64,000 nucleotides of DNA from Shigella phage ChubbyThor. A model generated the notes under the pieces. It was not told the origin of the DNA, did no database searches, and saw nothing but the letters and a program-made list of their open reading frames with translations. Within the stretch, counting starts at the first letter, position 1; each line of letters begins with the position of its first letter. The stretch lies in the sequence record OL615013; one strand, given 5' to 3'. A program made the position numbers and the translations under genes. Below are positions 3,860 through 26,175 of this stretch, one piece after another.

Positions 3860-4975
3860 TTATGCGTCCAGTTTGTTCAGGCGTTGTTGGGCAGCATTGT
3901 AGAAGTGCTCTGCCAGTTTACAGACGTTGTCAGGGCGCTGGATGTTGTTCCCGGCGCGGATATCCTTCTTCAGGACTTCCACTGCATCGGTTGCCACCAT
4001 CTCTTCGGTGACCTCAACCTTCTCAGCCGCCACGGTGATAGTCCGGTCGATGAAGTTGTAGTCAATGCACTTGCAGCGCTTCATGGCATCACAGAACTTT
4101 TCATAATGCTTAGCATTGTCGCGGTTCTGTACGATAACCTTAACGATCTGTCCTTCAATACCCAAGCCTGTGTTCAGCCATTCCGGGTCGATCCAGTTAC
4201 CCTCATCGTCTGAGGACAACTTGGTGTAGTCATACTCCACATAGCGGAACAACGTCTGGTGCTCGCTGTTGGGGATGAATACCTCGCCGCCGCGCATATC
4301 GTCTACATAGAAACCACGGTTGGTGCCGTCTTTGTAGTCTTCCCAGTTCAGGTGATACGGAGTCCCAATATATTGAATGTTACCTTCCATCGAACGGGTA
4401 TGGAAATGTCCCGTGTCGACCCTGGTAAACTTGGAAAGCAGAGCAACGTCGATCTGACCGTGATCACAAGTAGAAGACTGGTACATTTTGAACCCTGCCA
4501 GCTCCAGATGCGCAAAACAGTACTCGGCGTCTGTATCTTGTATCGCTTTAATAGACGCATCATAGTTCTCCTTGTTGATCCAAGGCAGCAGCAGAGTCTT
4601 GACACCCTCGATCATCACTTCGGTCGGTTCGCTGTAGTAGCAGTACACATCTGGGTCGAGTTCGTTCAGGTAGGATGGCCAGTTGATGCGGTTGGACTCT
4701 TCCAGGGTGATGTCGTGGTTGCCAACAATGCCATTCCACTTGATGTCAGCCGCTTTCAGCGCTGGAGTTAATTCATCCTTCAGCCAGTCTTTGTCGCGCC
4801 CGTACATGAATTTTCGGACGTCAAACGTGTCACCCAATTGCCAGACCTCATGGATGTCCGAGTCGACAAGCTCGGGGATGAAATAGTTGATGAGGTAGTT
4901 CTTGATGAAGTCGCGAACGTAACGGGAACCATTACGGCTCCCGATATGCAGATCGCCTATTTTAGCAATCGCCAT
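3860..4975 (-). CDS. 47: recombination endonuclease subunit, SbcD/Mre11-like nuclease (T4 gp47-like)
   Basis: Calcineurin-like phosphoesterase motifs GDLHIG, GDTFD, GNHD; directly downstream of gp46-like gene. Confidence 0.85.
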   Translation of the reverse strand: MAIAKIGDLHIGSRNGSRYVRDFIKNYLINYFIPELVDSDIHEVWQLGDTFDVRKFMYGRDKDWLKDELTPALKAADIKWNGIVGNHDITLEESNRINWPSYLNELDPDVYCYYSEPTEVMIEGVKTLLLPWINKENYDASIKAIQDTDAEYCFAHLELAGFKMYQSSTCDHGQIDVALLSKFTRVDTGHFHTRSMEGNIQYIGTPYHLNWEDYKDGTNRGFYVDDMRGGEVFIPNSEHQTLFRYVEYDYTKLSSDDEGNWIDPEWLNTGLGIEGQIVKVIVQNRDNAKHYEKFCDAMKRCKCIDYNFIDRTITVAAEKVEVTEEMVATDAVEVLKKDIRAGNNIQRPDNVCKLAEHFYNAAQQRLNKLDA

Positions 4976-5703
4976 TATTCTGTTTCTCCTTCGGTTTCGT
5001 CCAAATCGAATTGGGTTTTGCCAAAGTCCTGATCTGAATTGTCTTCGGCCTGCGCTGTTACCGTATTCTTAGCCTGCGCCATGTATTGAAGTATGCCTTT
5101 CGCAATCTTTTTATTCGATTCTGCGAGACGAGCCGCCTCCACCTTCTCTCGCTCCTTCTGCCTTTGAGCGTCCTTTTTGTTCTCAAAGTTACCGATACGT
5201 TCACGGAAGTCCATGCCAATCCCTGTCGCGTCAACAAAGATCTCTTGTTGGAAGTCGGGATCGTCTGCCAGGCCTGCGAACCCACCCGCCTCTTCAAATG
5301 AGCGCAATTTGATGTACGTGTGTTCTTCTTCGATGTTCAGTTTACGAGCAAATGAGCGATCCGCACACATGGTCACCCAAGAGAAGAAGTTGATCTTCCC
5401 TTTCTTTCCAATGTGGTCGACGTCAAAGGTGTGGAGGTAACGCAGGATGTTGACGATTGCTTCAGAGACCATGTCTTCACGGAAGGGATAGTCGCGATAG
5501 TTGTAGCGGGTGCTCATCTTGGTGATGATGCGCTGGACCTGTAGAGCAACATAGTTGGGGATCTTTGGAAGCCTGGTGCCTTCAGCCAGAGCCTTCTTAC
5601 GAGCAGGGATCCAATCACGAAGGATACTGATGACACGCTCGTTATCTTCGTCCGTGAAATATTTGACGACATTCTCGCCACGATCAACATAATTCATACC
5701 CAT
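4975..5703 (-). CDS. 55: late-transcription sigma factor (T4 gp55-like) with C-terminal extension
   Basis: Recalled similarity to T4 gp55 (ILRDWI, YNYRDYPFREDMVSEAIVNILRYLHTFD, FFSWVTMCADRSFARKLNIEEE); T4-like 47-55 synteny. Confidence 0.75.
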   Translation of the reverse strand: MGMNYVDRGENVVKYFTDEDNERVISILRDWIPARKKALAEGTRLPKIPNYVALQVQRIITKMSTRYNYRDYPFREDMVSEAIVNILRYLHTFDVDHIGKKGKINFFSWVTMCADRSFARKLNIEEEHTYIKLRSFEEAGGFAGLADDPDFQQEIFVDATGIGMDFRERIGNFENKKDAQRQKEREKVEAARLAESNKKIAKGILQYMAQAKNTVTAQAEDNSDQDFGKTQFDLDETEGETE

Positions 5704-5714
5704 TGTGGGAACCC

Positions 5715-6242
5715 TCAGATACCGATAAATTCATCAAAAGATCCAACAACCTTCTTCACTGAGATCTTGTCATTCTCAATCAGGAAGTTGCTGTCGTTTT
5801 TGGCTGCTGTGGCCCAGTCATCGGCAAGTTCGTTACCTTCGTGCCCCGCATGACCCTTAACCCATTTTAGTTCAACTTCACAAATTGAACAAACGAGATC
5901 ATAGATTCTGAACAGATCTTTGATGAGTTCAACGTTCTTGTCTGGGAAGCCCTGATACTCCCACTTCGCTCGCCATTCGGTGACGCTCTTGATGGTGTAT
6001 TGACTGTCAGACCAAATTGTTGCCTTTGGTATTCTGCGCTCACCCTTTCCTGAGAATGCCCACAGCAGCTTCAATGCGTTGGTCACACCCAACAACTCGG
6101 CGATGTTGTTGGTGGACGGGGGAGGTAGGTGACCGAAGAACACCTTCCATTGCATACCCGATATTGGCCTGATGACAAATGCCCATCCTGCGGCCTGGTT
6201 GGTCTTCGGGTTAGAACCCCCGTCAGAATAAATTTCTATCAT
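5715..6242 (-). CDS. ribonuclease HI (RnhA-type)
   Basis: SDGGS near N-terminus and GHAGHEGNELAD motif; start moved from track position to ATG at 6240-6242 (MIEIYSDGG...). Confidence 0.75.
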   Translation of the reverse strand: MIEIYSDGGSNPKTNQAAGWAFVIRPISGMQWKVFFGHLPPPSTNNIAELLGVTNALKLLWAFSGKGERRIPKATIWSDSQYTIKSVTEWRAKWEYQGFPDKNVELIKDLFRIYDLVCSICEVELKWVKGHAGHEGNELADDWATAAKNDSNFLIENDKISVKKVVGSFDEFIGI

Positions 6243-6244
6243 GA

Positions 6245-6252
6245 TATAAATA
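6245..6252 (+). promoter_or_regulatory. exact T4-type late-promoter octamer TATAAATA, about 36 nt upstream of the plus-strand gene at 6288
   Basis: tataaata read directly at 6245-6252 in the divergent intergenic region. Confidence 0.3.
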
Positions 6253-6287
6253 TCCCAAACTGGTTTTATAGAAAGAGGAATGAAACT

Positions 6288-7055
6288 ATGGCACCCCGCG
6301 CATATCGTTTCAGTCTCACCGCCCCGCAGATTGAGCAATTGCTCCTTTCTATCAATGATGCTATCAAGTCAGAAGATATCATCTATGATTATGCTGCAGG
6401 TGGGACTGTTGGGCAAGTCGCAGCAGCGTCTGCCGTCAAGAACATGTGGTTGAAGCTCAACGAGATGGTAACAGGCCAAGGCCTCAAAGATGCCATCAAC
6501 GCTGCAGAAGACAGCAACGTGTTCACCGACTATTATAAGTCTTTACTGGATCGCGAAGGCTGGAAATTTATTGGGTCTCCGGCAGATGAACTTGAGCGAG
6601 GCGACATCGACACCGCGAACTTCACGGGTGGTGAGGTCATTCTACTTCAGAAGAACGCTTCAGGCAACCCCGAATTCCAATACTGGAAGCGTACCCCGGT
6701 TGCTGGGGGTGATCCGACCTTCGCCTGGGCTTCGGTCTATGAAGGGAACTCCAACGACTCCAGCATCGAAATCCCGGTGATTGGCACCAGCGTCCTCAAA
6801 GACATTCCCAAGGCTCTCTTCCATATGGTGGAGTTCCGGGTTCATGTCTATGATGAAACGCTGGGGCACTGGCAAGATACAGATGGCAAGGTGGGGTATC
6901 GTGGCGAGGATCTGTTCTACAGCACGTATAACCATGTGCAGACCAAACCGCTCGCCACCATTGACTTCAGTCAAGACACAGATAGCATGACAGTCTCTGT
7001 GACTTCCCTGGAGCCGAATGTCAAATGCCATCTGTCGTTTATCGCTGGTTACTAA
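6288..7055 (+). CDS. hypothetical protein (255 aa), plus-strand gene
   Basis: ATG at 6288 with AGAGGA SD 8 nt upstream; divergent from RNase H gene; track ORF 6129..7055 trimmed to this ATG. Confidence 0.55.
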   Translation: MAPRAYRFSLTAPQIEQLLLSINDAIKSEDIIYDYAAGGTVGQVAAASAVKNMWLKLNEMVTGQGLKDAINAAEDSNVFTDYYKSLLDREGWKFIGSPADELERGDIDTANFTGGEVILLQKNASGNPEFQYWKRTPVAGGDPTFAWASVYEGNSNDSSIEIPVIGTSVLKDIPKALFHMVEFRVHVYDETLGHWQDTDGKVGYRGEDLFYSTYNHVQTKPLATIDFSQDTDSMTVSVTSLEPNVKCHLSFIAGY

Positions 7056-8770
7056 ACCTCAAACACGGCATCAGTAAACCAAGCGGGGAAGAACTCTGGG
7101 TTGCGCATCATCAGTGATTCAAAAGAAGAATCAAGGATGTATGTCGCAGCCCAGTCATTCACGCCCCTGACCGAACGCCCGCACATCTGAACGATACGCA
7201 GTACCGCCATCCTGAAGTACGCCGATGGGTCTACACTGTTGACGTGAGCCACCAGAGGATCACCAAGGTAATCGTATGGAACCTTGATCAAGATCTGAAA
7301 TCGGCTGTAATCGCCTTTGAAGTCATACCCCTCTTCCATAGCCGGACTGGCGATGACACAAGGCGTCTTCGTCCGGAACGCGTGTTCCATGATGTCCATC
7401 AGAGCCTTACGAGTACGAGGAACGTGAATCATATTCCGGTACTTGCTAAACTTCTGTAGAGCCAGGGCGCGGTCATAGCTGACGGTGTGGATGATACCAG
7501 ACTGACCGGGGTGGAATGCGATGATCTCGTCCACGTATTCAGCCAGCTTCTTCATCTCATAGTCACCCATGTTGGACGACATCTTCATGACGGGCATGTA
7601 GTTGACTTTGCGGTTCTCAATCGGGATAGGGTTGCCGATCTGAATCTTGTGGTACTCACCATCACGGATACCCAGTGACCGAGCGTACGAGTCAATCCCA
7701 CAAATGGTCGCCGACATGTGAACATGATAGTCACCCTTGCGGAACAGGCCGAACTGAGACACATCAGAGGCAATGACAGGCTTGAACTGGATCATGCCCT
7801 TGTCCTTCTCCTGCACGATGAAGGTGCTGGCGTTGGTCTGCCCCATGATACCACAGTAGTCACTGAGGTTGTGAAGGGTGTCAATGATGTCAGACAACTT
7901 CATCACCTGGGCTTCAGTCAGGCGCTCGTCCTCTACCAGTTCCTCAAGGGTTTCTAAGAGGGCTTCAACCTTGTCATGCAGGTCGTCAAAGATCGCATGC
8001 ATCTCACCTGTCAGTGAGTACAGCTTACCCAACTCGTAATTCTCTGTGCGTCTGACGATATCCGTGATGATCTCCACGATAGGCACCCCCTCGGGGATTG
8101 TCAGCAACCCCCTTACAGCATTTATGCTGTATTCCATGATCGTGTGCTCTAGGAGCGTAGAGGGCATTTTATGGCACTCGTCAAGGATCAGCATATCGGC
8201 GCGGTTTTCCGGCTTCATACAGATCGTCGTGCACATCTCCACCATCATGGCGGCGTTGGTGCAGCGCAGAGAAGAGATGTCCGTCCAAAGACGACGAGCC
8301 TGAACATATGGGCAACGATTTTTATTACAGTGGCCATCTCGGCATGCCATACGGCACTGGATAGCGTTGTAATACAGGTCAGGACTGATATGACAACGAT
8401 AGTTCTTCTTGCCCTTCAGGATGTCTATCGCCACGGCTTTCTCCGCCGCATACTGATCTTGTAACCCTTTGGTCGGCGTCGTGATAGACGTGCGGAACTG
8501 ACCATACGGATTGCGCTCAAGAACCAGATGGCGAAGCACGTTATGGATGGTAGTGCCAATGAGGGATTTGCCCACACCAGTCGGAGCCTCGATGATCACG
8601 TGTTTGAATTTCTTATTCACAAGGGCATCAACGGCTTCAACGATGCACTCCATCTGGCCGGGGTTGGCGGTGTCGTATGGGAAGGACTCAGTGGCAAGAG
8701 ACTTGATGCGGTCTATGCTAACTGGTCCGACGCCATCAAGCGCCTTGGTATATTGGTTGAATGCTGTCAC
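7052..8770 (-). CDS. DinG/XPD-like superfamily-2 DNA helicase with Fe-S cluster
   Basis: Walker A APTGVGKS, DECH box, four-cysteine cluster CRMACRDGHCNKNRCPY between them. Confidence 0.7.
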   Translation of the reverse strand: MTAFNQYTKALDGVGPVSIDRIKSLATESFPYDTANPGQMECIVEAVDALVNKKFKHVIIEAPTGVGKSLIGTTIHNVLRHLVLERNPYGQFRTSITTPTKGLQDQYAAEKAVAIDILKGKKNYRCHISPDLYYNAIQCRMACRDGHCNKNRCPYVQARRLWTDISSLRCTNAAMMVEMCTTICMKPENRADMLILDECHKMPSTLLEHTIMEYSINAVRGLLTIPEGVPIVEIITDIVRRTENYELGKLYSLTGEMHAIFDDLHDKVEALLETLEELVEDERLTEAQVMKLSDIIDTLHNLSDYCGIMGQTNASTFIVQEKDKGMIQFKPVIASDVSQFGLFRKGDYHVHMSATICGIDSYARSLGIRDGEYHKIQIGNPIPIENRKVNYMPVMKMSSNMGDYEMKKLAEYVDEIIAFHPGQSGIIHTVSYDRALALQKFSKYRNMIHVPRTRKALMDIMEHAFRTKTPCVIASPAMEEGYDFKGDYSRFQILIKVPYDYLGDPLVAHVNSVDPSAYFRMAVLRIVQMCGRSVRGVNDWAATYILDSSFESLMMRNPEFFPAWFTDAVFEV

Positions 8771-8824
8771 TTTCTTCCTCCTATGGGATTCGCCTTTAGT
8801 TTAACCGATTCCCAGGAACGAAAA

Positions 8825-8847
8825 AGCCGGAGTACAATGCTCCGGCT
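8825..8847 (-). terminator. intrinsic terminator hairpin downstream of HU-like gene (works on either strand)
   Basis: AGCCGGAG / CTCCGGCT 8-bp stem with 7-nt loop, flanked by A5 upstream and TTCTCTTTT downstream. Confidence 0.6.
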
Positions 8848-8899
8848 TTCTCTTTTGTCACGCCCCCGCGTTGCAGAGGCCGGACCGAACCAGGTTGAA

Positions 8900-9178
8900 T
8901 TACTTGCCGTTGGCAGCGTTCTTCAGACCTTCGCCCACTTTAAATTTCACAACGTTTTTCGCTTCGATCTGAATGGTCTGACCGTTCAGAGGGTTACGAC
9001 CTTCACGAGCTTCCTGGTGCTTCACTTCGAACGCGCCGAAGCCGACCAGCTGTACAGATGCGCCTGCAGCAACTGCAGTTTTAACGCCGTCGATAAAGGA
9101 TGCCACTACTTTCTCCGCTTCGCCTTTGGTGATGTTCTGGGTCGAAGCAATGTGGGCAACAAATTCAGTACGATTCAT
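8900..9178 (-). CDS. HU/IHF-family DNA-binding protein
   Basis: Full-length HU-like sequence MNRTEFVAHIA...GFGAFEV...GRNPLNGQTIQIEAKNVVKFKVG. Confidence 0.85.
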   Translation of the reverse strand: MNRTEFVAHIASTQNITKGEAEKVVASFIDGVKTAVAAGASVQLVGFGAFEVKHQEAREGRNPLNGQTIQIEAKNVVKFKVGEGLKNAANGK

Positions 9179-14472: not shown

Positions 14473-14979
14473 TTATAGGGTAACAAGTGATACGGTAAAA
14501 ACCATCGTCCCGTCTGTTGCCATTTTTCTTGAAACTGGTATGACGCGAGGCTGGCAGAATATCCATTCTTTCTCCATGGACGCCAAGTCCAGCATATCCA
14601 TTTCTGATTCATCGCCTTTGTTCACAAATTTTTCTAGAGAACCATAGACATTAAGCCCCTCCGGGAGTCCGTTTCGATGTTTGTAACAAATGCGGGCAAC
14701 AGCTTTGGTTCCGTACGATTTAGAAAATTGTTTGGCCACATGCTTCAGTTCACTGAAGCTAAGACAAGAATCCCATGTCTGGAACATGTCGCCTCGTTCA
14801 AACAACATCTCTAAACGCGCAACGTCCTCCTTAGGCAGCCCGCGATAAAGTGTGGTCGTCTGTGGCTCGCGTAATTCTTGCACCAGATCACGGACGGCAG
14901 GGGAAACAGTACCGGGGCGCATGATGTGGGACTTATCATGGGCGAGGTAAAATAAATCTTGAATTTGTTGATCGGTCAT
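14473..14979 (-). CDS. hypothetical protein (168 aa)
   Basis: Track start is TTG; moved to ATG at 14977-14979 preceded by ...GCAGGAACTATATC. Confidence 0.5.
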   Translation of the reverse strand: MTDQQIQDLFYLAHDKSHIMRPGTVSPAVRDLVQELREPQTTTLYRGLPKEDVARLEMLFERGDMFQTWDSCLSFSELKHVAKQFSKSYGTKAVARICYKHRNGLPEGLNVYGSLEKFVNKGDESEMDMLDLASMEKEWIFCQPRVIPVSRKMATDGTMVFTVSLVTL

Positions 14980-15005
14980 GATATAGTTCCTGCATTTCAA
15001 ATAGA

Positions 15006-15401: not shown

Positions 15402-15728
15402 TTATTTGCGCAGGGCAACCACGAGTTCAGCGAGTTCGCCCATGGTAGGGTCATCGCCTTTACTACCCAGCCAGCCGTCGTCGATTTCGACCTGAAACTC
15501 TTCTTCGAGGTCCATTACAATTTCGATAGCGTCCAGTTCGTCGCCGCCGAGATCCTTCTTGGTGCGGAGACCAGCCAGCTTGTCCAGGGCATCGTTGATT
15601 ACCACTTCGGCATCGACGATCCCTTTGATGCTACTCTTGTCCTCATCACTGACTTCCAGATTCAGATTGTCAGTGGCGTACTGAGCCAGATGACGCATGA
15701 CTTCAACATATGTTGGTTTACTGCTCAT
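15402..15728 (-). CDS. acyl-carrier-protein-like protein with Ser-to-Glu at the phosphopantetheine site
   Basis: KKDLGGDELDAIEIVMDLEEEFQVEI matches the ACP core LGADSLDTVELVMALEEEFG, with E where the modified Ser normally sits. Confidence 0.55.
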   Translation of the reverse strand: MSSKPTYVEVMRHLAQYATDNLNLEVSDEDKSSIKGIVDAEVVINDALDKLAGLRTKKDLGGDELDAIEIVMDLEEEFQVEIDDGWLGSKGDDPTMGELAELVVALRK

Positions 15729-15770: not shown

Positions 15771-17972
15771 TTAGATTTTGATCTCTTTCTCTGCCAGTTC
15801 GGCAGTGACCTTGTACTTCACGCCATCCACTTCAACTTCCATGGTTGACTCTTCCAGGTCGAGGTCGGTGAACCAGCCGTGGCCAGCAACGATACCATAC
15901 ACCACTTTAGACAGCGTCTTGTTCAAGGCGCGGACTTCAGTGATGGCCGCCTTGGCAGCAGCGTCGATCCAGTTTTCGATCAGCTGTTTCTGTACGGCTT
16001 CAGGCACGGCAGTGATCGCAGGAGACTTCACGAATGCTTCGTATTCCTTCAGAGCATTGGCGATGAACAAGTCACCCGCATTGAGTTTCTTGTTCTCGGC
16101 AATCTTCTTCTGTACTGCCGCGATGCTAGGCAGAGAAGACGCTCCAGCGATCTTAACGTTCAGCTCACGGCTCATGTAGACATCCGTGGAGTCCTTCAGT
16201 TCGGTCTTCGGTGAGAAGCCGTAATCGCGGATGCCGTAGGAGGACAGGAACTCTGCCGCCTCAGCGCCGTACTGTACTGCCAGGCCTTTGGCGTTACCTT
16301 TGCCAACCAGTTCATCACGGAAGAACTTCAGCACCTTCTGCTTGCCTTTCAGGGCTTCCAGACGGACATTATCCGCAAAGAACTGAGCAGCACTGATGTT
16401 CTTGACCATGGCGCGGTTGACCAGCGGTACGCTTTCCAGGTTCAGGACAAACACTTCCGGACCACCGAACACATGGACGCCCATCTGGCACAGATTGGTT
16501 ACAACTTCAACATCAGCCCTGAACGGCAGAGTCTTCACGTTGATGATGCCGTCTTTGACGATGGTGTAGTTGCGCCACTGGAAAGTATCCAGTTCTTCAG
16601 GCAGACCGAACTTCTTCTGCACGAACTCCGGAATCGCCACAGTGCCGTGCTGGACAGTGCGTACACTGATATTAGGGCGTTCGGAGTTATAGACCAAATC
16701 GCTGATTGGCACAACACCCAGATCGTTGTTAGGTTCGAACGTCGGGTTCCACTCTTCGTGCTCGGCCAGCTTGAGAGCCAGGGCTTTGCGCTCTTCTTTG
16801 GACTCGGCGTTCGCGATCTGTTCTGCCAGCTTGTCTTCGGTATCGTCCAGTTTCTGAGCCGTACCGCGACCGATGCTCTTGTAGGAGAACATAGGATGTT
16901 TGGTAGCAACACACACGCCAGCTTCAGCCAGATACGTCAGCACGTCAACGACGGTCGTCGCATCTTCAGCTGGAACCAGGTCATAATCAATACCGTCAAC
17001 GCCGCGCAGCTGGTCATCAACGATGGCCTGGGTCAGATCAACTTTGATGTTGGAGTAGTCCTGCTTGGTGAAGCAGTTGCTGTACTGTTTGATGAAGCGA
17101 ACGTCACCCGTTTTCTTCAGGGCAGCCCACACCAGGTCTGCGTCCATGATGTGTACGCCGTAGAACGCCAGCACGTATGCCGCCTGGATGTCCGCCAGCG
17201 CATCAAGCTGGTCGATCATGTTAGGATTGACGACCCACAGCTTCGTGACGCTCTCAGGGATGCTCACGTGGCCGATAGGATGGTCTTCATCCGGCTGTAC
17301 CGCCAGCACAGTTGCTACGCCGTTTTCAACGTAGATGGCATGATCATACAGCAACGGAACATCAACAACCACTTTCGGCACCGAGGACTTCAGTACGTTT
17401 TCCAGCTCGGTCTGATATTCGGTCTGGCCTTCGGCGAACACGTGAGTCGCGCCGGAACGTTCAGACATCAGAGCCAGCAGTTCGCGGTTACAGTACCAGC
17501 CGTATTCGATGAATGTGACGTTGTCGAAAGCGGAAGGAAGTTTTTCGGCGGTCTCCAGGATCTCATTGGAGCGCCAGCAGTTGTCATAACCATCGGTCAT
17601 GAACGCCAGGTTGTTGACGTAGCCGGGTTTCTTCAGGTCACGCGCAGTATCCATCGCCAGTTTCAATGGTTCAACAAAACCAGTACAGCCGGATGGTTGT
17701 AGGAAGCGGTCGATCAGTTTGTTCAGCTCGCTCAGGTCAGATGCTGCACTAACCTGACGGCCAGCGAACACAGTACCAAAGTCGCCACGGGATGAGAAAT
17801 ACAGAACACTCACAGTATCTTCCGGTTTCACCAGAGAAGGCAGGTTCTCCTTCAGATGCTTACGGACTTCAGGGAGCGCACGGTACATCGAATAAGAGAT
17901 GTCCACAACGATTACATGGTTGGACGGGGCAGCAGTCGCAACCGCATTCTTAAATTCTAATGATTCAATCAT
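15771..17972 (-). CDS. von Willebrand factor A (vWA) domain protein with about 500-aa uncharacterised C-terminal region
   Basis: Track start is TTG; moved to ATG at 17970-17972 (MIESLEF...); MIDAS-like HVIVVDISYSM in N-terminal domain. Confidence 0.6.
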   Translation of the reverse strand: MIESLEFKNAVATAAPSNHVIVVDISYSMYRALPEVRKHLKENLPSLVKPEDTVSVLYFSSRGDFGTVFAGRQVSAASDLSELNKLIDRFLQPSGCTGFVEPLKLAMDTARDLKKPGYVNNLAFMTDGYDNCWRSNEILETAEKLPSAFDNVTFIEYGWYCNRELLALMSERSGATHVFAEGQTEYQTELENVLKSSVPKVVVDVPLLYDHAIYVENGVATVLAVQPDEDHPIGHVSIPESVTKLWVVNPNMIDQLDALADIQAAYVLAFYGVHIMDADLVWAALKKTGDVRFIKQYSNCFTKQDYSNIKVDLTQAIVDDQLRGVDGIDYDLVPAEDATTVVDVLTYLAEAGVCVATKHPMFSYKSIGRGTAQKLDDTEDKLAEQIANAESKEERKALALKLAEHEEWNPTFEPNNDLGVVPISDLVYNSERPNISVRTVQHGTVAIPEFVQKKFGLPEELDTFQWRNYTIVKDGIINVKTLPFRADVEVVTNLCQMGVHVFGGPEVFVLNLESVPLVNRAMVKNISAAQFFADNVRLEALKGKQKVLKFFRDELVGKGNAKGLAVQYGAEAAEFLSSYGIRDYGFSPKTELKDSTDVYMSRELNVKIAGASSLPSIAAVQKKIAENKKLNAGDLFIANALKEYEAFVKSPAITAVPEAVQKQLIENWIDAAAKAAITEVRALNKTLSKVVYGIVAGHGWFTDLDLEESTMEVEVDGVKYKVTAELAEKEIKI

Positions 17973-18135
17973 CGTTATTGCCTTCTTCAGGGTTGTCTTC
18001 GGCCTCACCTTCCGGCTTGACCAGCATATGTTCAAGGAAATCGCGATTGAGTTCAATCTGACTCATCAGCGTTTCCGATGGGCTAAAGCGGCGGTCGAGG
18101 TTGTCGACGCCCGCACGTTCAAATGGTTTGGCCAT
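17965..18135 (-). CDS. small acidic protein (56 aa)
   Basis: ATG at 18133-18135 next to stop of upstream ORF; 8-nt overlap with vWA start. Confidence 0.35.
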   Translation of the reverse strand: MAKPFERAGVDNLDRRFSPSETLMSQIELNRDFLEHMLVKPEGEAEDNPEEGNNDD

Positions 18136-18136
18136 A

Positions 18137-18496
18137 TCAGCCGCCCTTGACTTCAGTAACGCCAGGGATCGACCGCAGGGCTTGGCGAACATCGGCGACC
18201 TTGTCCTTCTCCACAGTCACCACAATGAACGAGAAGTTCCTTTGTTTACGCCATTTCTTGAAGTGTGAGACAAGCTGTACTTCGTTTTCTTCTGCGCCGC
18301 TTCCCCCTTCTACAGGGACGTAAACGACACCAGATTCAATAACTACATCGGCGTCATCGGGGATATCTGCGTCTACATCTTCGCGATATTCACCATTGAC
18401 TTTGATGCAATGATCGTCGTGCCAAGCGCCGTTCACCCAATATTCATCATCGTGGTAGTACGCATTGAACTCGACACCTTTCATCTTCACAGACAT
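18137..18496 (-). CDS. hypothetical protein (119 aa)
   Basis: ORF track; ATG at 18494-18496. Confidence 0.45.
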   Translation of the reverse strand: MSVKMKGVEFNAYYHDDEYWVNGAWHDDHCIKVNGEYREDVDADIPDDADVVIESGVVYVPVEGGSGAEENEVQLVSHFKKWRKQRNFSFIVVTVEKDKVADVRQALRSIPGVTEVKGG

Positions 18497-18538
18497 CAGG
18501 ATTCCCTCGAAACAGGGGAGTTGCCTCCCCTTCGGTTA

Positions 18539-20203
18539 TCAGATTTGTGATGCCAGTTCTACTACGAGAGGAGCGGCACGGACACGCGCATCTTCCAGAG
18601 TTTGAGTGTTGAAGAACTTGCCGTCACGATACACCAGCTGGTGCTGGTTGTCGGCGTCTTGCACCTGATCAAAGGTGATACCGTCAACCAACACTAGTTT
18701 ACCCTGAGAGTCTTTAATGACTTTAAGGAAACCACGCGCAGACTTTTTAGTCCCGCCTTTGTCGGTCTTCGGCTCTTTGAAGATCTCACGGAATTCGCCG
18801 TTCACCTTACCAGCCGTTGCTTTCACCGCCGTGCCAGTACTGTCACGGGTGTTCATCTGGTAGGTGTAGGAACCGATACCGAACACCACGTTGATGGAAG
18901 CGAAGTTCCGGCCAGCCAGACGACTAAAGATCTGGTCTTCACGTGCCAGGGTGATGGAGTCACCGTAGATCAGACCGATGTGTTCGTCCAACAGGAAGTG
19001 GCCAGTTTCAGTTTGAGTACCGCCAAAGATCTCCCACAGGCGCTGGATAGAGCCGACTGCTTCAGAACGGCTGATGATATTACGGTCGTCTGCCATCAGA
19101 GAGTTGATCGTGCCTTCGCCTGTGATCAGGTGATAGGTGTTCGTCTCTTCGATGTGAATGACTTCAGTGCTGCTAGACACGCCGCTGATGTTCAGCGTGG
19201 CGCGGTCTTTGAACCCCTCAATGCGGTAGCCGCCGACGATATGAACTGGGTCGCCCGAGTCAGGGCGGATCACGACTTTACCGTTACGCGCCATGATAAT
19301 GTCTTTCAGGCGAGGGAGATAGTCGTCGATGACCTGCCAGTAATCCCACGCATCAGACACGATGCTGACGATGCCATCAGGATACACGTCCTGCACCAGG
19401 CGGCGGAAGGTTTCGAATTCGCCATCCTTCGTACCCATACACATCACGGCGTGTTCGGTAGCCGCAACAGAACCAGCAACGACATAGTCTTCGTCGATGT
19501 CTGCGCCATAATACTCTTCTACGAAGTCCAGGGCAGGGTTGGTATCGGTGCCTTTGAAGAACACCAGATGACCGGAACCGGAAGACGCCGCGTCATGCCA
19601 TCCACTCATGCCACGGAAGGAGAAGTCGTGGCCTTGGTAGTCGATGAACCAATGGTCCGGCGACACGCCTGTAGCGAGGGCAGCTTTCACCATCAGTGCC
19701 TTGTAATGCAGGGCGATGGTGGCGTTCGTCATCGGCTTCCAGATCTCAGAGCTGAACACAGTCTCCAGATAGTTGGTCAGCCAGTAGAACTCCGGCAGGG
19801 TGTTGAACATCACATACACCGGAACGCCATATGGGCACATGGTGCCTTCAGGCAGAGCACGGACTTCGATAGGCAGGTAGCCGAGGTCATGCAGGGCTTC
19901 AATATGCTCTGTGCCGACGCGGCCTGGACCCAGGACTTTGTTCATGCGACGGGCATACTTCTTCAACACCTTGGCCTTTGGGCGCTGGAAGAATGCTTCG
20001 TCAAACAGTTCGTGGAACCAGGTCATGAAGCCCTGGATGCCCCAGACCACCACGCCGTTCTTCGGCAGGTGAGAGTTGAACAGTTTGTTGGAGCGCGGAG
20101 TTCCGTTGGAGAACACCAGCTCGCTGCCTTCAGGGAACTGATAGATGTGCCCTGATTTGTAGAAGTCGATTGCATGGATTGGGTCTAAGTGGCGCATGCT
20201 CAT
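18539..20203 (-). CDS. nicotinamide phosphoribosyltransferase family protein (NadV/Namat-like)
   Basis: NAMPT-like motifs DFSFRGMSG, VSDAWD, RPDSGDP, GLIYGDSIT; 4-nt overlap with upstream PRPP-synthetase-like gene. Confidence 0.8.
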   Translation of the reverse strand: MSMRHLDPIHAIDFYKSGHIYQFPEGSELVFSNGTPRSNKLFNSHLPKNGVVVWGIQGFMTWFHELFDEAFFQRPKAKVLKKYARRMNKVLGPGRVGTEHIEALHDLGYLPIEVRALPEGTMCPYGVPVYVMFNTLPEFYWLTNYLETVFSSEIWKPMTNATIALHYKALMVKAALATGVSPDHWFIDYQGHDFSFRGMSGWHDAASSGSGHLVFFKGTDTNPALDFVEEYYGADIDEDYVVAGSVAATEHAVMCMGTKDGEFETFRRLVQDVYPDGIVSIVSDAWDYWQVIDDYLPRLKDIIMARNGKVVIRPDSGDPVHIVGGYRIEGFKDRATLNISGVSSSTEVIHIEETNTYHLITGEGTINSLMADDRNIISRSEAVGSIQRLWEIFGGTQTETGHFLLDEHIGLIYGDSITLAREDQIFSRLAGRNFASINVVFGIGSYTYQMNTRDSTGTAVKATAGKVNGEFREIFKEPKTDKGGTKKSARGFLKVIKDSQGKLVLVDGITFDQVQDADNQHQLVYRDGKFFNTQTLEDARVRAAPLVVELASQI

Positions 20204-21054
20204 TTTACACGTCCTGTATTTTCAGTTTTGAAAGGAAGACCGTCGGCGGTGATATTCTCCCACCAGACAGTGTCGGCATACACAGCATCGTAAATCCCGT
20301 CGAAAACAGAGAGACCTTTGCTGAAGATGCCATGGGTAACGAAGAGCGTCATGTGTTTGGGCTTGTGCTTCTGAAGCTCTTTGCCTAACTCAACGAACGT
20401 GCGCCCACCGTCGCAGATATCATCAACCACAACCAGATAGCGGTCTTTGATCAGTTCAGGGTTTGTAATGCTCACCCCAATGATCTCACCAGTCTTGGTG
20501 TCACGGTTCTTGTGTCCGTAGACAACAGGAACACCATCCAGAGACAGGCTGAGGGCTTCGGTCTTCTTCGCCGCGCCACCGTCAGGGGCTACCAACACAG
20601 CATTGTTCCCACGGATGAACCAGCCCAGATACTGACGCACGATGTAATCTTGCGGGACAACATGGACGTTGTTGATCAGAGAAGTCACAACATGGCTGTG
20701 AGGGTCTTTGATCGCCACGCGGTCAAAGTTCATGCTATTGATGAACTCAGCCGCCCACTTCACAGACAGAGGCTCGCCGAAGTCGCAATGGCGGTCCTGG
20801 CGAGCATACGGGAAGTAAGGGATATACGCATGGAATGTCGTCAGACGATCCACGTTGCCCAGGCCACGCACGGCGTTTACCAGAAGCGCCAGCTCAATGA
20901 AGTCGGCTGATGATTTGATGTGAGCATCAATCACCACGTTCTGGACGTGACCGACAGGGATGCCAGCCTTTTGGATCTTGATATGTTCCTCACCACCTGG
21001 GAAGGTGAAGTGCTTGTAGAACACATCTTGGTCGTTCAATTTCAAACGAAACAT
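20200..21054 (-). CDS. ribose-phosphate pyrophosphokinase family protein (Prs/Adps-like)
   Basis: PRPP-binding motif VVVDDICDGGRTF and VLVAPDGGAAKK; size typical for Prs family. Confidence 0.8.
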   Translation of the reverse strand: MFRLKLNDQDVFYKHFTFPGGEEHIKIQKAGIPVGHVQNVVIDAHIKSSADFIELALLVNAVRGLGNVDRLTTFHAYIPYFPYARQDRHCDFGEPLSVKWAAEFINSMNFDRVAIKDPHSHVVTSLINNVHVVPQDYIVRQYLGWFIRGNNAVLVAPDGGAAKKTEALSLSLDGVPVVYGHKNRDTKTGEIIGVSITNPELIKDRYLVVVDDICDGGRTFVELGKELQKHKPKHMTLFVTHGIFSKGLSVFDGIYDAVYADTVWWENITADGLPFKTENTGRVK

Positions 21055-21164
21055 AATGTAGCCTCATGGTGTATTGTACAGCCGTATTATACTGTGATGC
21101 ACAAATTGAAACACCCAGCAAATATACTGGGCGTCATTGATATTGAAGGAGTTTGATAATTCAG

Positions 21165-21959
21165 TTATTTGTAGGAATCGACGATGGCCTTGAACAGCGC
21201 GTCCTTCTGGTCGGTTGGGATATAATCCGCCGGAGCCAGCAAGAGCCGCCTGATGTCTTCACAGCAGCCTTTCTGCTCTTCGGCGCTCATCTTATCCCAA
21301 GTGGTGGCATTAAAGTAGATCCCACCCTTGTAAGCCGCCGTGCAAGTCTTGGCCAGGCGAACAACGAGTTCTGAATACAGTTCATCAGGCCGCATGTGTG
21401 AACGCAAATATGTTTCCACTCTGGCCTGGACTTTGCTGTTGTGTTGGTCATTGTGAAGTTCGTTGTCGGTATGAATAAATTCAGCACCGAATCCGCGACT
21501 TGGGTCTCGTGGATGATGGAACACGAAAGACTGGCTATGACCTTTCAAGAATTCCATCCCAGCCATATGATTTATCTTCCCCCTTTCGGAGATGTACTGC
21601 AAGATATCTATCTTCGCATCGGCGGTGGCCGCCTCCAACATCTGCTTCTCCACGACGGCGCGGTAGGCTTCCAGTTCCCACAACTGGGAGAAAGTCTTGT
21701 CATAGGCCAGCTTCTTACCCAACTCTTCATCAAAGTTGGCAGGGTCGATGGAAGTAGAGCTATTCTTGCCCCAGACGACAAAGCCGTTGTCCATCTTGAA
21801 ATGGCAGGTGATGACACGATGACCGCCGACTTCACGGTCTTCATAGATGACTTCAGCAATGTGGGACTTCAGGAGGTCTGGAGACAGCTTCAGACCTTCG
21901 CGAACAGATTTACCCTTCAGCTCAACACCTTTGGGTTCATTACGATTGATGGTTGCCAT
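21165..21959 (-). CDS. hypothetical protein (264 aa)
   Basis: Track start is TTG; moved to ATG at 21957-21959 (MATINRNEPKG...). Confidence 0.45.
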   Translation of the reverse strand: MATINRNEPKGVELKGKSVREGLKLSPDLLKSHIAEVIYEDREVGGHRVITCHFKMDNGFVVWGKNSSTSIDPANFDEELGKKLAYDKTFSQLWELEAYRAVVEKQMLEAATADAKIDILQYISERGKINHMAGMEFLKGHSQSFVFHHPRDPSRGFGAEFIHTDNELHNDQHNSKVQARVETYLRSHMRPDELYSELVVRLAKTCTAAYKGGIYFNATTWDKMSAEEQKGCCEDIRRLLLAPADYIPTDQKDALFKAIVDSYK

Positions 21960-22341
21960 TCTGTGTTTCCCGTAATTGGTTGCATACAACAACTACTTTA
22001 CGGCACATGTCGATATCGAACAAGCCGATATGGCAATCACGCTTCTTGATCCCCAGCTTATGCGCCAGCCAACTGTAAGCGTCGCTCCTGCTCCTCTCTC
22101 CGCTTTTCCACAATGGGTCAAACGATCTATGGGCTTTTCGCTTCTCGGCACGGAGAGCGGCATTCGCCATCCTTCCCAGAGGTTGTCTGCCGTCGCCATG
22201 GGCATGGCAACCGACACGAGCGTCACATGGAGTGCATACCCAGAACTTCAGATTGCGGAGGTCAGGGCGATGAGGGTGGAGGACGTCACCACCGACGAAT
22301 TCGGCTGGGTGGCCGCAGTAATCACAGATGACAGGTTTCAT
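21940..22341 (-). CDS. zinc-ribbon phage protein
   Basis: CDYCGHPAEF...FWVCTPCDARVGCH four-Cys/His pattern; start moved to ATG at 22339-22341 just after terminator hairpin. Confidence 0.5.
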   Translation of the reverse strand: MKPVICDYCGHPAEFVGGDVLHPHRPDLRNLKFWVCTPCDARVGCHAHGDGRQPLGRMANAALRAEKRKAHRSFDPLWKSGERSRSDAYSWLAHKLGIKKRDCHIGLFDIDMCRKVVVVCNQLRETQNGNHQS

Positions 22342-24951: not shown

Positions 24952-26175
24952 TTATTCAGGTTTCTTCAAACGGTCCAGCAAATTGACGGAACCACGTTTG
25001 AGCACGACTTCATCACAGCGCTTTTTGTATTCCCCACCGCCGTCATAGCTGACCTTGCCCCGAGGTTTTTCACCGCGCCCAACCGCCTCAACACAGCGAG
25101 TGTACTTGCTCAGTTCACAGAACATGTTCTCCAGCTGCATGACGTTCATGCATTGGTCTACAGGCTCTTCGGCCGACCAGAATTGCTCGCGAACATACCC
25201 ATATTGGGAGTATACCGCGTCCTGATTATCCCGTAGCCAGAATATGCATTCTTCGTGAGTCATGCCGTCCTTGTTCAGGAACAGCAGATCAATACCTGCG
25301 CGACAGCCCGGTCCGGCGATCGTGAAGTGATTCTCGCTGAACGGATAACCAGGCATGTACGTGAAATCAACCCAGATCTGATAGGCCAGGAATGGACCAA
25401 GCCCTTCAATGTCGTCGTACATGCGCTGGTATACTTCCAGAGGAGTATCAAGACGCAGCAGGTCATGGAAGTAATTTGGGTGCTTGTTGACGAATGCCTT
25501 CAGGGAACGGATAACACGCATCGGCATGTATGGTTCCCATCCCTCGATGGTATATTCACCAGGATTCTCTTCGACCAGCTTCTTGGCGACCTTGTAGTCC
25601 ATCTCGTCCACAATACCCTGGCCAACGCGATACACTTTCACCATCATCCCACCGAAGCGCTGCTCCTTGTGGTTGACAACCAGCTCAGGGAAAGCCAGGC
25701 ATTGCTTCAGGCCGCCTGTGTTGAAGGCATTGGTGAACACCTTGCCGCCGTCGGCCTCGAACTTCTGAAGTCGTTCGCGGGTTGCGTCAAGGTTGATCTT
25801 GGCGAAGTCTTTGATCGTCATCGCGCCGCCGATAGCCTGGATCGGATCCCAGAGGTTGAACATGCGGAACAGAACGCAGTTGAACATCTTGTCTGCCATG
25901 CCCAGAGCATCGTTCTTGACGATGTTATTGATCAGGTTGAGAGACTGCCTGTCGTGCTCTCTCCGGACGTTACAGAACTTGACCTGCCGTAGTATAGGAT
26001 TATTGGTCCAAGGGGCAGGAAGACGCTGGACGTCCTTCTTGACGTGGATCTTATAGCGCTCGCTCATCCATTCGTAAGACAGGCGGGTATGGGTCGGACT
26101 GAGAACCGGTTTGGCCGACTTTATCTTTTCTTCACGGACACCGCAGTACGGGACGTCCAGGGCTTTATCTTTCAT
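24952..26175 (-). CDS. hypothetical protein (407 aa)
   Basis: Long ORF with ATG start; no motif recognised. Confidence 0.6.
   Translation of the reverse strand: MKDKALDVPYCGVREEKIKSAKPVLSPTHTRLSYEWMSERYKIHVKKDVQRLPAPWTNNPILRQVKFCNVRREHDRQSLNLINNIVKNDALGMADKMFNCVLFRMFNLWDPIQAIGGAMTIKDFAKINLDATRERLQKFEADGGKVFTNAFNTGGLKQCLAFPELVVNHKEQRFGGMMVKVYRVGQGIVDEMDYKVAKKLVEENPGEYTIEGWEPYMPMRVIRSLKAFVNKHPNYFHDLLRLDTPLEVYQRMYDDIEGLGPFLAYQIWVDFTYMPGYPFSENHFTIAGPGCRAGIDLLFLNKDGMTHEECIFWLRDNQDAVYSQYGYVREQFWSAEEPVDQCMNVMQLENMFCELSKYTRCVEAVGRGEKPRGKVSYDGGGEYKKRCDEVVLKRGSVNLLDRLKKPE

What the first reader, a model, noticed from the sequence alone, without database searches (positions are those of the whole stretch)
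18539..21054. NAMPT-family and PRPP-synthetase-family genes in one overlapping operon: candidate NAD+ reconstitution (NARP1-like) counter-defence module
A 554-aa nicotinamide phosphoribosyltransferase-family protein and a 284-aa ribose-phosphate pyrophosphokinase-family protein overlap by 4 nt. This pairing is the published phage NARP1 layout, in which a Prs-like Adps makes ADPR-pyrophosphate and a NAMPT-like Namat condenses it with nicotinamide to rebuild NAD+ after depletion by Thoeris, DSR, SIR2-HerA or SEFIR defences. No NMN adenylyltransferase gene was recognised nearby, which would argue for NARP1 over the NadV+NMNAT (NARP2) route. The NAMPT homolog also carries an extra segment of roughly 50 residues (around ISGVSSSTEVIHIEETNTYHLITGEG) that I do not recall in canonical NadV.
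Basis: partly seen in the sequence, partly recalled or inferred. Interest (0 to 1): 0.8.

Follow-up and report, generated by a model that had tools for sequence, protein, structure and literature searches.

The report
Known phage NAD+ rebuilding operon (NARP1)

Summary
Both ORFs are real. A 284-aa Prs-family gene (20200-21054, minus strand) overlaps a 554-aa NAMPT-family gene (18539-20203, minus strand) by ATGA.

The window is an Agtrevirus-type Ackermannviridae phage, 97% identical to Salmonella phage SKML-39. The NAMPT-like protein is 100% identical to that of Shigella phage ChubbyThor.

The NARP1 reading holds:
- The Prs-like protein falls inside the phage Adps clade (200/200 bootstrap against canonical Prs). 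It misses every NCBIfam Prs cut-off.
- The NAMPT-like protein keeps all catalytic residues and carries the Namat clamp motif (GSYTYQMNTRD).
- Its best sequence and fold matches are the solved SPbetaL1 Namat.
- No NMNAT, Nudix or Macro gene is in the 64 kb.

It is already known. ChubbyThor, SKML-39, MK-13 and Ag3 are listed in the supplementary tables of the NARP1 discovery paper.

The "extra ~50 residues" are real (about 46 aa, Y326-A371) and modelled as an ordered mini-domain. They sit at a general insertion hotspot, where the validated Bas63 Namat has a larger insertion.

Side finding: the upstream gene is a gp49-RyR protein whose RyR core is deleted here.

No activity was tested in this lineage.

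The parts
20200..21054 (-). adps: 284-aa Prs-family protein, predicted ADP-ribose pyrophosphate synthetase (Adps)
   Evidence: ORF. Pfam Pribosyltran and Pribosyltran_N. It falls below all NCBIfam Prs cut-offs. It lies inside the Adps clade with 200/200 bootstrap. ChubbyThor and SKML-39 orthologues are listed in Table S1 of 10.1101/2024.02.11.579819.
18539..20203 (-). namat: 554-aa NAMPT-family protein, predicted nicotinamide ADP-ribose transferase (Namat)
   Evidence: ORF. It scores 456 bits against Namat 9w5x and 174 bits against human NAMPT. Foldseek top hit is 9w5x with target TM 0.95. Catalytic residues and clamp motif are shown. It is 100% identical to the ChubbyThor protein, which is labelled 'Adps-associated' in Table S2.
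20200..20203 (-). ATGA stop/start overlap of adps and namat (translational coupling inferred)
   Evidence: The sequence reads gtaaaATGAgcatg.
20395..20424 (-). Adps residues 211-220, DDICDGGRTF: Adps-type version of the Prs ribose-5-phosphate loop (Prs has DDMIDTGGT)
   Evidence: The loop is identical in Bas63 Adps.
20509..20511 (-). Adps K182, equivalent to the catalytic Lys162 of SPbetaL1 Adps and Lys197 of B. subtilis Prs
   Evidence: Alignment A2 and the HMMER alignment to 5mp7. The K162A mutant is described in 10.1101/2024.02.11.579819.
18842..18874 (-). Namat residues 444-454, GSYTYQMNTRD: selectivity-clamp helix (SCH) motif GSX-phi-X-phi-X-phi-TRD
   Evidence: The motif is defined in PMC12774641. 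Position 7 is Met instead of Tyr/Phe.
20054..20092 (-). Namat residues 38-50, SNKLFNSHLPKNG: selectivity-clamp loop (SCL), same length as in Bas63 (SDKWFNSPLAIDG)
   Evidence: The SCL rule is given in PMC12774641.
19091..19228 (-). Lineage-specific insertion of about 46 residues (Y326-A371) after the RPDSGDP catalytic strand
   Evidence: In the AF2 model it has pLDDT 92-97, strands 328-331, 348-351 and 356-359, and helix 366-371.
21062..21091 (-). Putative expression signals upstream of adps: TATAAT (21091-21086) and GAGG ribosome-binding site (21065-21062)
   Evidence: Read directly from the sequence. The consensus scan did not call a complete sigma-70 promoter, so this is inference only.
18515..18530 (-). 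Stem-loop GGGGAG-gcaa-CTCCCC 9 nt after the namat stop codon (possible terminator or RNA-stability element)
   Evidence: Read directly from the sequence. The terminator scan did not call it because the T-tract is short.
21165..21992 (-). Upstream neighbour: N4 gp49-like protein with a remnant RyR domain whose ligand-binding core is deleted. It is context, not a demonstrated part of the pathway.
   Evidence: Pfam Phage_gp49_66 only. It is 38% identical to the L008 protein, which has Pfam RyR at 1.7e-10. Alignment A6 shows the loss of HESW..GWxYG..HP.

Best explanation
The two overlapping genes are a NARP1 cassette (NAD+ reconstitution pathway 1) in an Agtrevirus-type Ackermannviridae phage. After a host NADase defence (SIR2-HerA, DSR1/2, type I Thoeris, SEFIR and the like) cleaves NAD+ to ADP-ribose and nicotinamide, the 284-aa Adps uses ATP to pyrophosphorylate the ribose C1 of ADP-ribose, giving ADPR-PP. 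The 554-aa Namat then displaces the pyrophosphate with nicotinamide and regenerates NAD+ directly. Shown here: family membership, clade placement, conserved catalytic and clamp residues, operon layout, and absence of NMNAT and Macro genes. Inferred by homology from SPbetaL1, Bas63 and FADO: the two reactions and the counter-defence phenotype. With no Macro-domain Adpp, the cassette is predicted not to rescue the phage from aRES systems, which produce ADPR-1''-phosphate.
For: Adps side. An NJ tree of 27 sequences over 272 columns separates canonical Prs from Adps-like proteins in 200/200 bootstraps. The window protein lies inside the Adps group, which contains all three characterised Adps (Bas63, SPbetaL1, FADO). 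TIGR01251 scores 105.7 bits against a cut-off of 113, and the Prs-specific NCBIfam models score 47-93 bits against cut-offs of 296-536. The best PDB Prs hit is only 67 bits. The loops DDICDGGRTF and GHKNRDTKTGEI match Bas63-type Adps, not Prs (DDMIDTGGT, DKRRPRAN). Namat side. Sequence scores are 456 bits to Namat 9w5x/9w5w, 358 bits to H. ducreyi NadV and 174 bits to human NAMPT. Foldseek ranks Namat first, with target TM 0.95 and rmsd 2.0. All catalytic residues are kept: D13, Y15, F194, R197, D220, H251, R313, D315, G414-D415 and R453-D454. The SCH motif GSYTYQMNTRD fits the published Namat consensus, whereas NARP2-type Nampts have GGGLLQQLDRD and HdNadV has GAQTYQRNTRD. Layout and context. 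adps precedes namat with an ATGA overlap, as in SPbetaL1 (1-nt overlap). There is no NMNAT, Nudix or Macro gene in the window. Catalogue. ChubbyThor OL615013_00158/00159, SKML-39, MK-13, Ag3, P46FS4 and EspM4VN are listed in Tables S1 and S2 of 10.1101/2024.02.11.579819. The same motif occurs in bacterial homologues that also have an Adps-type neighbour (Fibrella).
Against: No enzyme of this lineage has been assayed. Identity to characterised Adps is only 24-33%, and to characterised Namat 47-48%. SCH position 7, which stacks on adenine as Y396 in SPbetaL1, is Met here. The SCL fourth residue is Leu, not the Trp of Bas63. In my small Namat/Nampt tree, the genuine NMN-forming H. ducreyi NadV nests among the Namats, so tree position alone cannot assign substrate. 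Namat retains PRPP-dependent NMN synthesis in vitro (PMC12774641), so a classical salvage contribution is not excluded. The effect of the 46-residue insertion on activity is unknown.
Confidence: 0.88

Rival explanations
1. Classical salvage, as the GenBank annotations say. The 284-aa protein is a PRPP synthetase and the 554-aa protein is a NadV/Nampt that makes NMN from PRPP and nicotinamide. Host NadR/NadD then completes NAD+ synthesis.
For: Public records annotate the genes as ribose-phosphate pyrophosphokinase and nicotinamide phosphoribosyltransferase. Namat can still make NMN from PRPP in vitro (PMC12774641). H. ducreyi NadV nests within the Namat radiation in my tree.
Against: The Prs-like protein fails all NCBIfam Prs thresholds. 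It is separated from Prs in 200/200 bootstraps. Purified SPbetaL1 Adps gave no PRPP-synthetase activity, and Bas63 NARP1 restored NAD+ in a host lacking pncC and nadR (10.1101/2024.02.11.579819). The NAMPT-like protein has the adenine-clamp motif that true Nampt/NadV lack.
Confidence: 0.07
2. A decaying or non-functional cassette. The genes are remnants on their way out, like the fused Adps-Namat ORF of phage Ag3 and the eroded RyR domain next door.
For: Ag3 carries a fusion of Adps residues 1-222 to Namat residues 226-554. The upstream RyR domain is internally deleted in this lineage. Det7 lacks the cassette altogether.
Against: Both ORFs are full length with every catalytic residue intact. 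The 90%-identity clusters hold 116 and 114 member sequences. The Namat-like protein is 99.8% identical, over the trimmed alignment columns, between the window (an Agtrevirus-type phage) and Mansal (a Kuttervirus). The model is confidently folded, with pLDDT 94.
Confidence: 0.03
3. A general NAD+ booster for the phage's own NAD+-consuming enzymes, such as the nearby RNA polymerase ADP-ribosylase-like gene, rather than a counter-defence device.
For: An Alt/Mod-like ADP-ribosyltransferase ORF lies 3.5 kb away (phrog_832, 1.8e-15). ADP-ribosylation also yields nicotinamide.
Against: Protein ADP-ribosylation leaves the ADP-ribose attached to the target, so free ADPR, the Adps substrate, is not produced in bulk. 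In Bas63 the ADPR-PP intermediate appeared only when a defence system was present. This is a matter of emphasis more than a different mechanism.
Confidence: 0.02

Closest known systems
NARP1 of Escherichia phage Bas63 (JohannRWettstein) genes 79-80, validated in vivo (Osterman et al., 10.1101/2024.02.11.579819)
   Same: adps lies upstream of namat. The Adps loops DDICDGGRTF and K-x-R-[DN]-x-K-T-G-E-I are shared. The SCL has the same length and pattern (S-x-K-x-F-N-S-x-L). Both carry the Namat SCH motif. Both have an insertion at the same site after RPDSGDPVHIV-G-Y.
   Different: Identity is only 33% for Adps and 48% for Namat. The Bas63 genes are 45 nt apart rather than overlapping. Bas63 Namat is 593 aa, with a longer and unrelated insertion sequence plus a second insertion. 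Bas63 has Trp at SCL position 4 and Tyr at SCH position 7, where the window has Leu and Met.
NARP1 of Bacillus phage SPbetaL1 (biochemically characterised; Namat structures 9w5x/9w5w, PMC12774641)
   Same: The operon order is the same and the genes overlap. The catalytic residues are the same. It is the best sequence match (456 bits) and the best fold match (TM 0.95).
   Different: SPbetaL1 Namat is compact (491 aa, no insertion). Its SCL is shorter and has the stacking Arg40. Its Adps has the Gram-positive loop DDLSSFGGTF.
NARP2 (Nampt + bifunctional Nmnat) of Vibrio phage KVP40 and relatives
   Same: It has the NAMPT-family fold and rebuilds NAD+ from nicotinamide.
   Different: The window has no Nmnat or Nudix gene. 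The KVP40-like VH7D Nampt is only 30% identical and has GGGLLQQLDRD in place of the clamp motif. NARP2 uses PRPP, not ADPR.
NARP1-AP (Adps-Adpp-Namat with a Macro-domain ADPR-1''-P phosphatase; 10.64898/2026.01.28.702374)
   Same: The Adps and Namat core is shared.
   Different: There is no Macro-domain gene in or near the operon. Sensitivity to aRES defence is therefore predicted.
Haemophilus ducreyi NadV (9ke8/9keo), a genuine NMN-forming bacterial Nampt
   Same: It is 44% identical, has target TM 0.92, and nests in the same radiation.
   Different: Its clamp helix reads GAQTYQRNTRD, with no Ser-aromatic at positions 2-3 and Arg at position 7. It has no insertion.

Membership tests
NARP1: Adps | Belongs to the phage Adps clade, which is separate from canonical Prs | tested here: met
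   The NJ tree gives the Prs|Adps split in 200/200 bootstraps, with the window protein inside the Adps side alongside Bas63, SPbetaL1 and FADO Adps. It falls below all NCBIfam Prs cut-offs.
NARP1: Adps | Catalytic lysine (SPbetaL1 K162) and the Prs-type ATP/ribose-binding motifs are retained | tested here: met
   K182 is present in GHKNRD. FPGGEE, ARQDR, DPHS and DD211-212 are conserved.
NARP1: Adps | Pyrophosphorylates ADP-ribose (not ribose-5-phosphate) to ADPR-PP | not testable with these tools
   This needs purified protein and LC-MS.
NARP1: Namat | Nampt-like catalytic core (Phe/Arg/Asp nicotinamide pocket, catalytic His, Arg306/Asp308 equivalents) | tested here: met
   F194, R197, D220, H251, R313, D315, G414-D415 and R453-D454 are invariant in alignment A1.
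NARP1: Namat | SCH signature GSX-phi-X-phi-X-phi-TRD, with Ser at position 2 and an aromatic at position 3 | tested here: met
   The window has GSYTYQMNTRD. NARP2 Nampts have GGGLLQQLDRD and HdNadV has GAQTYQRNTRD.
NARP1: Namat | Aromatic residue at SCH position 7 stacking on adenine (Y396 in SPbetaL1) | tested here: inconclusive
   The window has Met450. The paper says these positions are 'most often' aromatic. Met, His or Cys occur at this position in about 15 of the other top homologues, and close relatives P0006 and P0007 have Tyr and Phe. In SPbetaL1, single clamp mutations cost only 1.3- to 1.7-fold.
NARP1: Namat | SCL loop with Arg/Lys/Tyr at the third position and a stacking residue there or next to it | tested here: inconclusive
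   The window has S38-N-K40-L41-F42. The third residue Lys fits the rule. The fourth is Leu rather than an aromatic, and Phe follows. The [KR]-L-F pattern recurs in many homologues.
NARP1: Namat | Forms a clade distinct from NMN-forming Nampt/NadV | tested here: inconclusive
   It is clearly apart from NARP2-type Nampts (300/300). However, H. ducreyi NadV nests among the Namats in my 16-sequence NJ tree.
NARP1: operon | adps and namat are adjacent on the same strand (Namat within ten genes of Adps) | tested here: met
   The genes share a 4-nt ATGA overlap, with adps upstream.
NARP1: operon | Restores NAD+ and overcomes NAD+-depleting defences in vivo | not testable with these tools
   This needs a phage knockout and challenge on hosts carrying SIR2-HerA, DSR or Thoeris.
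NARP2 | Nmnat (CTP_transf_like, often with Nudix) encoded by the phage | tested here: not met
   None was found among about 73 ORFs of the window. At genome level, Table S2 labels ChubbyThor and SKML-39 'Adps-associated'.
NARP1-AP | Macro-domain Adpp phosphatase within the operon | tested here: not met
   No Macro-domain hit was found in the flanking genes or anywhere in the window.
Canonical ribose-phosphate pyrophosphokinase (Prs) | Scores above the curated NCBIfam Prs thresholds | tested here: not met
   TIGR01251 scores 105.7 against a cut-off of 113. The Prs-specific models score 47-93 bits against cut-offs of 296-536.
RyDEP / RyR-domain cADPR glycosidase or sponge (upstream gene only) | Intact RyR (PF02026) domain with the H-x-x-W, GWxYG and HP ligand-binding residues | tested here: not met
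   No RyR hit appears even at E<=10. Alignment A6 shows about 43 residues deleted in frame, including the core, in the window and in SKML-39. The domain is intact in L008, Det7 and phiA41.

The most novel reading that the evidence does not exclude
The confidently folded insertion of about 46 residues after the RPDSGDP catalytic strand of Namat may be more than a neutral loop expansion. It is conserved within the Ackermannviridae lineage, while the same site is hypervariable in length (0 to about 80 extra residues) and in sequence across phage Namats. It could be a functional surface module. For example, it might gate or extend the ADPR-PP entrance, mediate regulation, or diversify under pressure from host factors that target Namat. 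A related possibility concerns the neighbouring gene. The Ackermannviridae NARP1 cassette may belong to a three-gene anti-Thoeris/anti-NADase island together with the gp49-RyR gene, whose RyR part has been lost in this phage.
Probability: 0.12. Interest if true: 0.5.

Novelty: already known. Interest (0 to 1): 0.2.

Why it matters
NARP1 explains how some phages escape the many bacterial defences that kill infection by destroying NAD+. Confirming it here adds no new biology, because this exact protein pair is already in the published catalogue of 859 NARP1 phages. Three practical points follow. First, the GenBank product names in this phage family ("ribose-phosphate pyrophosphokinase", "nicotinamide phosphoribosyltransferase") are functionally misleading. 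Second, for therapeutic or biocontrol Ackermannviridae phages, the cassette predicts resistance to SIR2/TIR/DSR-type NADase defences but not to aRES, because no Adpp is present. Third, the insertion hotspot in Namat is undescribed in the papers I could search, and the RyR-NARP1 neighbourhood in this phage family was not described in the three papers I checked. Both are small and testable leads.

Tried and rejected
1. The consensus promoter/terminator scan of 17.9-22.5 kb found nothing on the minus strand within the operon. The TATAAT and the hairpin I report come from reading the sequence and are only suggestive.

2. I searched for a solved Adps structure by sequence. Only distant Prs structures came back, at 67 bits or less, so no structural test of ADPR specificity was possible.

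3. A Namat-versus-Nampt tree was meant to give a clean clade test. H. ducreyi NadV nested among the Namats, so I do not rely on tree position for the Namat call.

4. A permissive Pfam scan (E<=10) of the upstream gene for RyR and of the downstream 119-aa ORF returned no RyR hit and only noise for the 119-aa ORF. The 119-aa ORF (phrog_4254) and the 75-aa ORF (phrog_8656) remain of unknown function.

5. I considered that the odd phrog_12872 hit, where both proteins match one 547-aa family, meant a natural fusion enzyme. It traces to the single fused ORF of phage Ag3, joined at a shared 'FVE'. That is probably a deletion or an assembly artefact.

6. I considered that the insertion might be unique or a mobile element. 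I rejected this because it is 46 aa, in frame, conserved in relatives of 70-87% identity, and one of many different insertions at the same site.

Full report
**Observation**

The two ORFs exist exactly as described. A 284-aa ORF lies at 20200..21054 and a 554-aa ORF at 18539..20203, both on the minus strand. The DNA at the junction reads GTA AAA TGA / ATG AGC, so the stop of the first gene and the start of the second share ATGA.

- The 554-aa protein matches Pfam NAPRTase (6.7e-32), NCBIfam PRK09198 (471.6 bits, cut-off 405) and PHROG nicotinamide phosphoribosyl transferase families.
- The 284-aa protein matches Pfam Pribosyltran and Pribosyltran_N and phrog_619.

**Source**

The region is 97.2% identical in DNA to Salmonella phage SKML-39 (Ackermannviridae, Agtrevirus) and 97.0% to Shigella phage MK-13. 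The 554-aa protein is 100% identical to the GenBank protein of Shigella phage ChubbyThor. The neighbouring genes are typical of this family: a 5-hmdU DNA kinase, T4-like clamp loader, portal, capsid, sheath and tail spikes.

**Is the Prs-like protein Adps or Prs?**

It fails NCBI's curated Prs models. TIGR01251 scores 105.7 bits against a cut-off of 113. The Prs-specific models score 47-93 bits against cut-offs of 296-536. The best solved Prs scores only 67 bits.

I built a reference set from three sources:
- the three experimentally characterised Adps (SPbetaL1, Bas63, FADO);
- 13 other phage Adps and one Namat-linked bacterial homologue (Curtobacterium) from the discovery paper's Table S1, plus three Adps-like homologues from my own search;
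- seven canonical Prs, namely E. coli plus six taken from the same table.

A neighbour-joining tree on 272 trimmed columns separates Prs from Adps-like proteins in 200 of 200 bootstraps. The window protein lies inside the Adps side, near PVP-SE1 and phiR1-37, together with all three characterised enzymes.

It shares the Adps-type loops DDICDGGRTF (identical in Bas63; Prs has DDMIDTGGT) and GHKNRDTKTGEI (Prs has DKRRPRAN). It keeps the catalytic lysine: K182 corresponds to SPbetaL1 K162.

**Is the NAMPT-like protein Namat or Nampt?**

By sequence it scores 456 bits against the solved SPbetaL1 Namat (9w5x/9w5w), 358 bits against H. ducreyi NadV (9ke8) and 174 bits against human NAMPT.

An AlphaFold2 model built on 118 homologues has mean pLDDT 94.1. 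Foldseek ranks Namat first (target TM 0.95, rmsd 2.0), then HdNadV (0.92), then mammalian NAMPT at about 0.89.

All catalytic residues are conserved. The published Namat signature is the clamp helix GSX-phi-X-phi-X-phi-TRD (PMC12774641). The sequences at that position are:
- window: GSYTYQMNTRD;
- NARP2-type Nampts of VH7D and Miller: GGGLLQQLDRD and GGGLLQEVTRD;
- HdNadV: GAQTYQRNTRD.

There are two deviations. Position 7, which is Tyr396 and stacks on adenine in SPbetaL1, is Met here. The clamp loop reads S-N-K-L-F where Bas63 has S-D-K-W-F. Both fall within natural variation. Met, His or Cys occur at position 7 in other homologues, and [KR]-L-F is common in the loop.

My small Namat/Nampt tree clearly separates the NARP2 Nampts (300/300) but places HdNadV among the Namats. 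Phylogeny alone therefore cannot assign substrate. The motif and the Adps partner carry the argument. The motif does track the partner: the Fibrella chromosomal homologue with the motif sits next to a Prs-like gene carrying Adps-type loops.

**Context**

A Pfam survey of about 73 ORFs across the whole 64 kb found no NMNAT, Nudix, Macro or RyR domain. This excludes NARP2 and NARP1-AP within the window.

adps is preceded by a GAGG ribosome-binding site and a TATAAT. namat is followed by a GGGGAG-gcaa-CTCCCC hairpin. The consensus scanner did not call either as a promoter or terminator, so these are only suggestive.

Kuttervirus Det7 lacks the pair at the same genomic position, whereas Mansal has it. 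The cassette is therefore accessory within the family.

**Already known**

The discovery paper (10.1101/2024.02.11.579819) defines NARP1 and reports it in 859 phage genomes. Its Table S1 lists the Adps homologues of ChubbyThor (OL615013_00159), SKML-39, MK-13, Ag3, P46FS4, Gloob, EspM4VN and 0507-KN2-1 with 'Namat within 10 genes: Yes'. Its Table S2 lists their partners as 'Adps-associated'. No member of this lineage has been assayed.

**The extra segment**

The segment is real. About 46 residues (Y326-A371) are inserted right after RPDSGDPVHIVGG. The model predicts it as an ordered unit with pLDDT 92-97, three short strands and a helix.

It is not special to this phage. Among the top 120 homologues, the spacing across this site ranges from 50-51 residues (the compact form, as in SPbetaL1) to 130. 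Sequences are unrelated between lineages but conserved in the window's relatives of 70-87% identity. Bas63 Namat, validated in vivo, carries a larger insertion at the same site. The Namat structure paper does not mention insertions.

The site follows a catalytic strand, so I infer that it lies on the catalytic face of the barrel. I could not check this in 3D.

**Neighbour**

The upstream gene (21165..21992) is an N4 gp49-like protein. Its homologues in a related 156-kb contig and in Det7 end in a RyR domain: Pfam PF02026 at 1.7e-10 for the contig protein, and the conserved core in the Det7 alignment. The Mansal homologue matches the contig protein over its full length. The contig's RyR domain also gives strong matches to RyR repeats in the PDB.

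RyR-domain phage proteins were reported in 2026 to cleave or sequester cADPR Thoeris signals. One of them feeds ADPR into NARP1 (10.64898/2026.05.28.727677).

In the window and in SKML-39, about 43 residues including the HESW..GWxYG..HP core are deleted in frame. This copy is therefore unlikely to bind such signals.

**Verdict**

The novelty level is 'already known'. Residual interest lies in the insertion hotspot and in the RyR-NARP1 neighbourhood.

Noticed in passing
window 21165-21992 (-); compare L008:4073-4963, L009:4495-5367 (Det7 gp42), L011:3995-4867 (Mansal_096): The gene just upstream of the NARP1 pair is a gp49-like protein. Its relatives in Kuttervirus and in a related contig carry an intact RyR (PF02026) domain, the family recently shown to degrade or sequester cADPR Thoeris signals. 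In this phage and in SKML-39 the RyR core is deleted in frame. In Mansal the order RyR-Adps-Namat is contiguous. Det7 has the RyR gene but no NARP1.
   Followed up: partly
L007 (Fibrella aestuarina chromosome HE796683) 4361-9174: A bacterial operon encodes, in order, an NrtR-type Nudix regulator, a Prs-like protein with Adps-type loops (DDICDGGGTF), a Namat-motif protein (P0084), DUF4291 and an ADP-ribosylglycohydrolase. It looks like a chromosomal NARP1 next to an NrtR-type regulator. From memory, NrtR responds to ADP-ribose, which would explain why a 'prs' paralogue sits with 'nadV' in NrtR regulons.
   Followed up: partly
Shigella phage Ag3 FJ373894_00125 (P0009); explains the phrog_12872 hits of both window proteins: Ag3 encodes a single 547-aa ORF that fuses Adps residues 1-222 to Namat residues 226-554, joined at a shared 'FVE'. 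This is either a deletion that inactivates both enzymes or an assembly error.
   Followed up: partly
window 14473-15000 (-): This ORF matches the PHROG family 'RNA polymerase ADP-ribosylase' (phrog_832, 1.8e-15), as annotated for Det7 gp48. It is an NAD+-consuming enzyme encoded 3.5 kb from the NAD+ rebuilding genes.
   Followed up: partly
window 36158-36580 (-): This 140-aa ORF has a YAcAr domain of the SLOG superfamily (PF10686, 2.8e-11; phrog_289 'GTP-binding domain'). SLOG domains bind nucleotide-derived ligands in defence systems such as ThsA, so a phage copy could be a signal binder.
   Followed up: no
window 24952-26175 (-): A 5-hmdU DNA kinase (PF18723, 4e-82) indicates the hypermodified thymidine pathway typical of ViI-like Ackermannviridae.
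   Followed up: no
window 18137-18496 (-) and 17965-18192 (-): Two small ORFs of unknown function (phrog_4254, phrog_8656) lie between namat and the VWA-domain gene. The 119-aa ORF is absent from P46FS4, Gloob, L008 and Kuttervirus relatives, so it is another variable element of this island.
   Followed up: partly
H. ducreyi NadV (PDB 9ke8/9keo) in the tree: The genuine NMN-forming NadV of Haemophilus ducreyi nests among phage Namats, weakly sister to SPbetaL1 Namat, but lacks the adenine-clamp residues. It may be a Namat that reverted to PRPP use.
   Followed up: no
window 15402-15728 (-) and 15771-18056 (-): An acyl carrier protein-like ORF (PP-binding) and a 733-761-aa VWA-domain protein lie directly downstream of the NARP1 island. 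Both are conserved in Det7, Mansal and L008.
   Followed up: no
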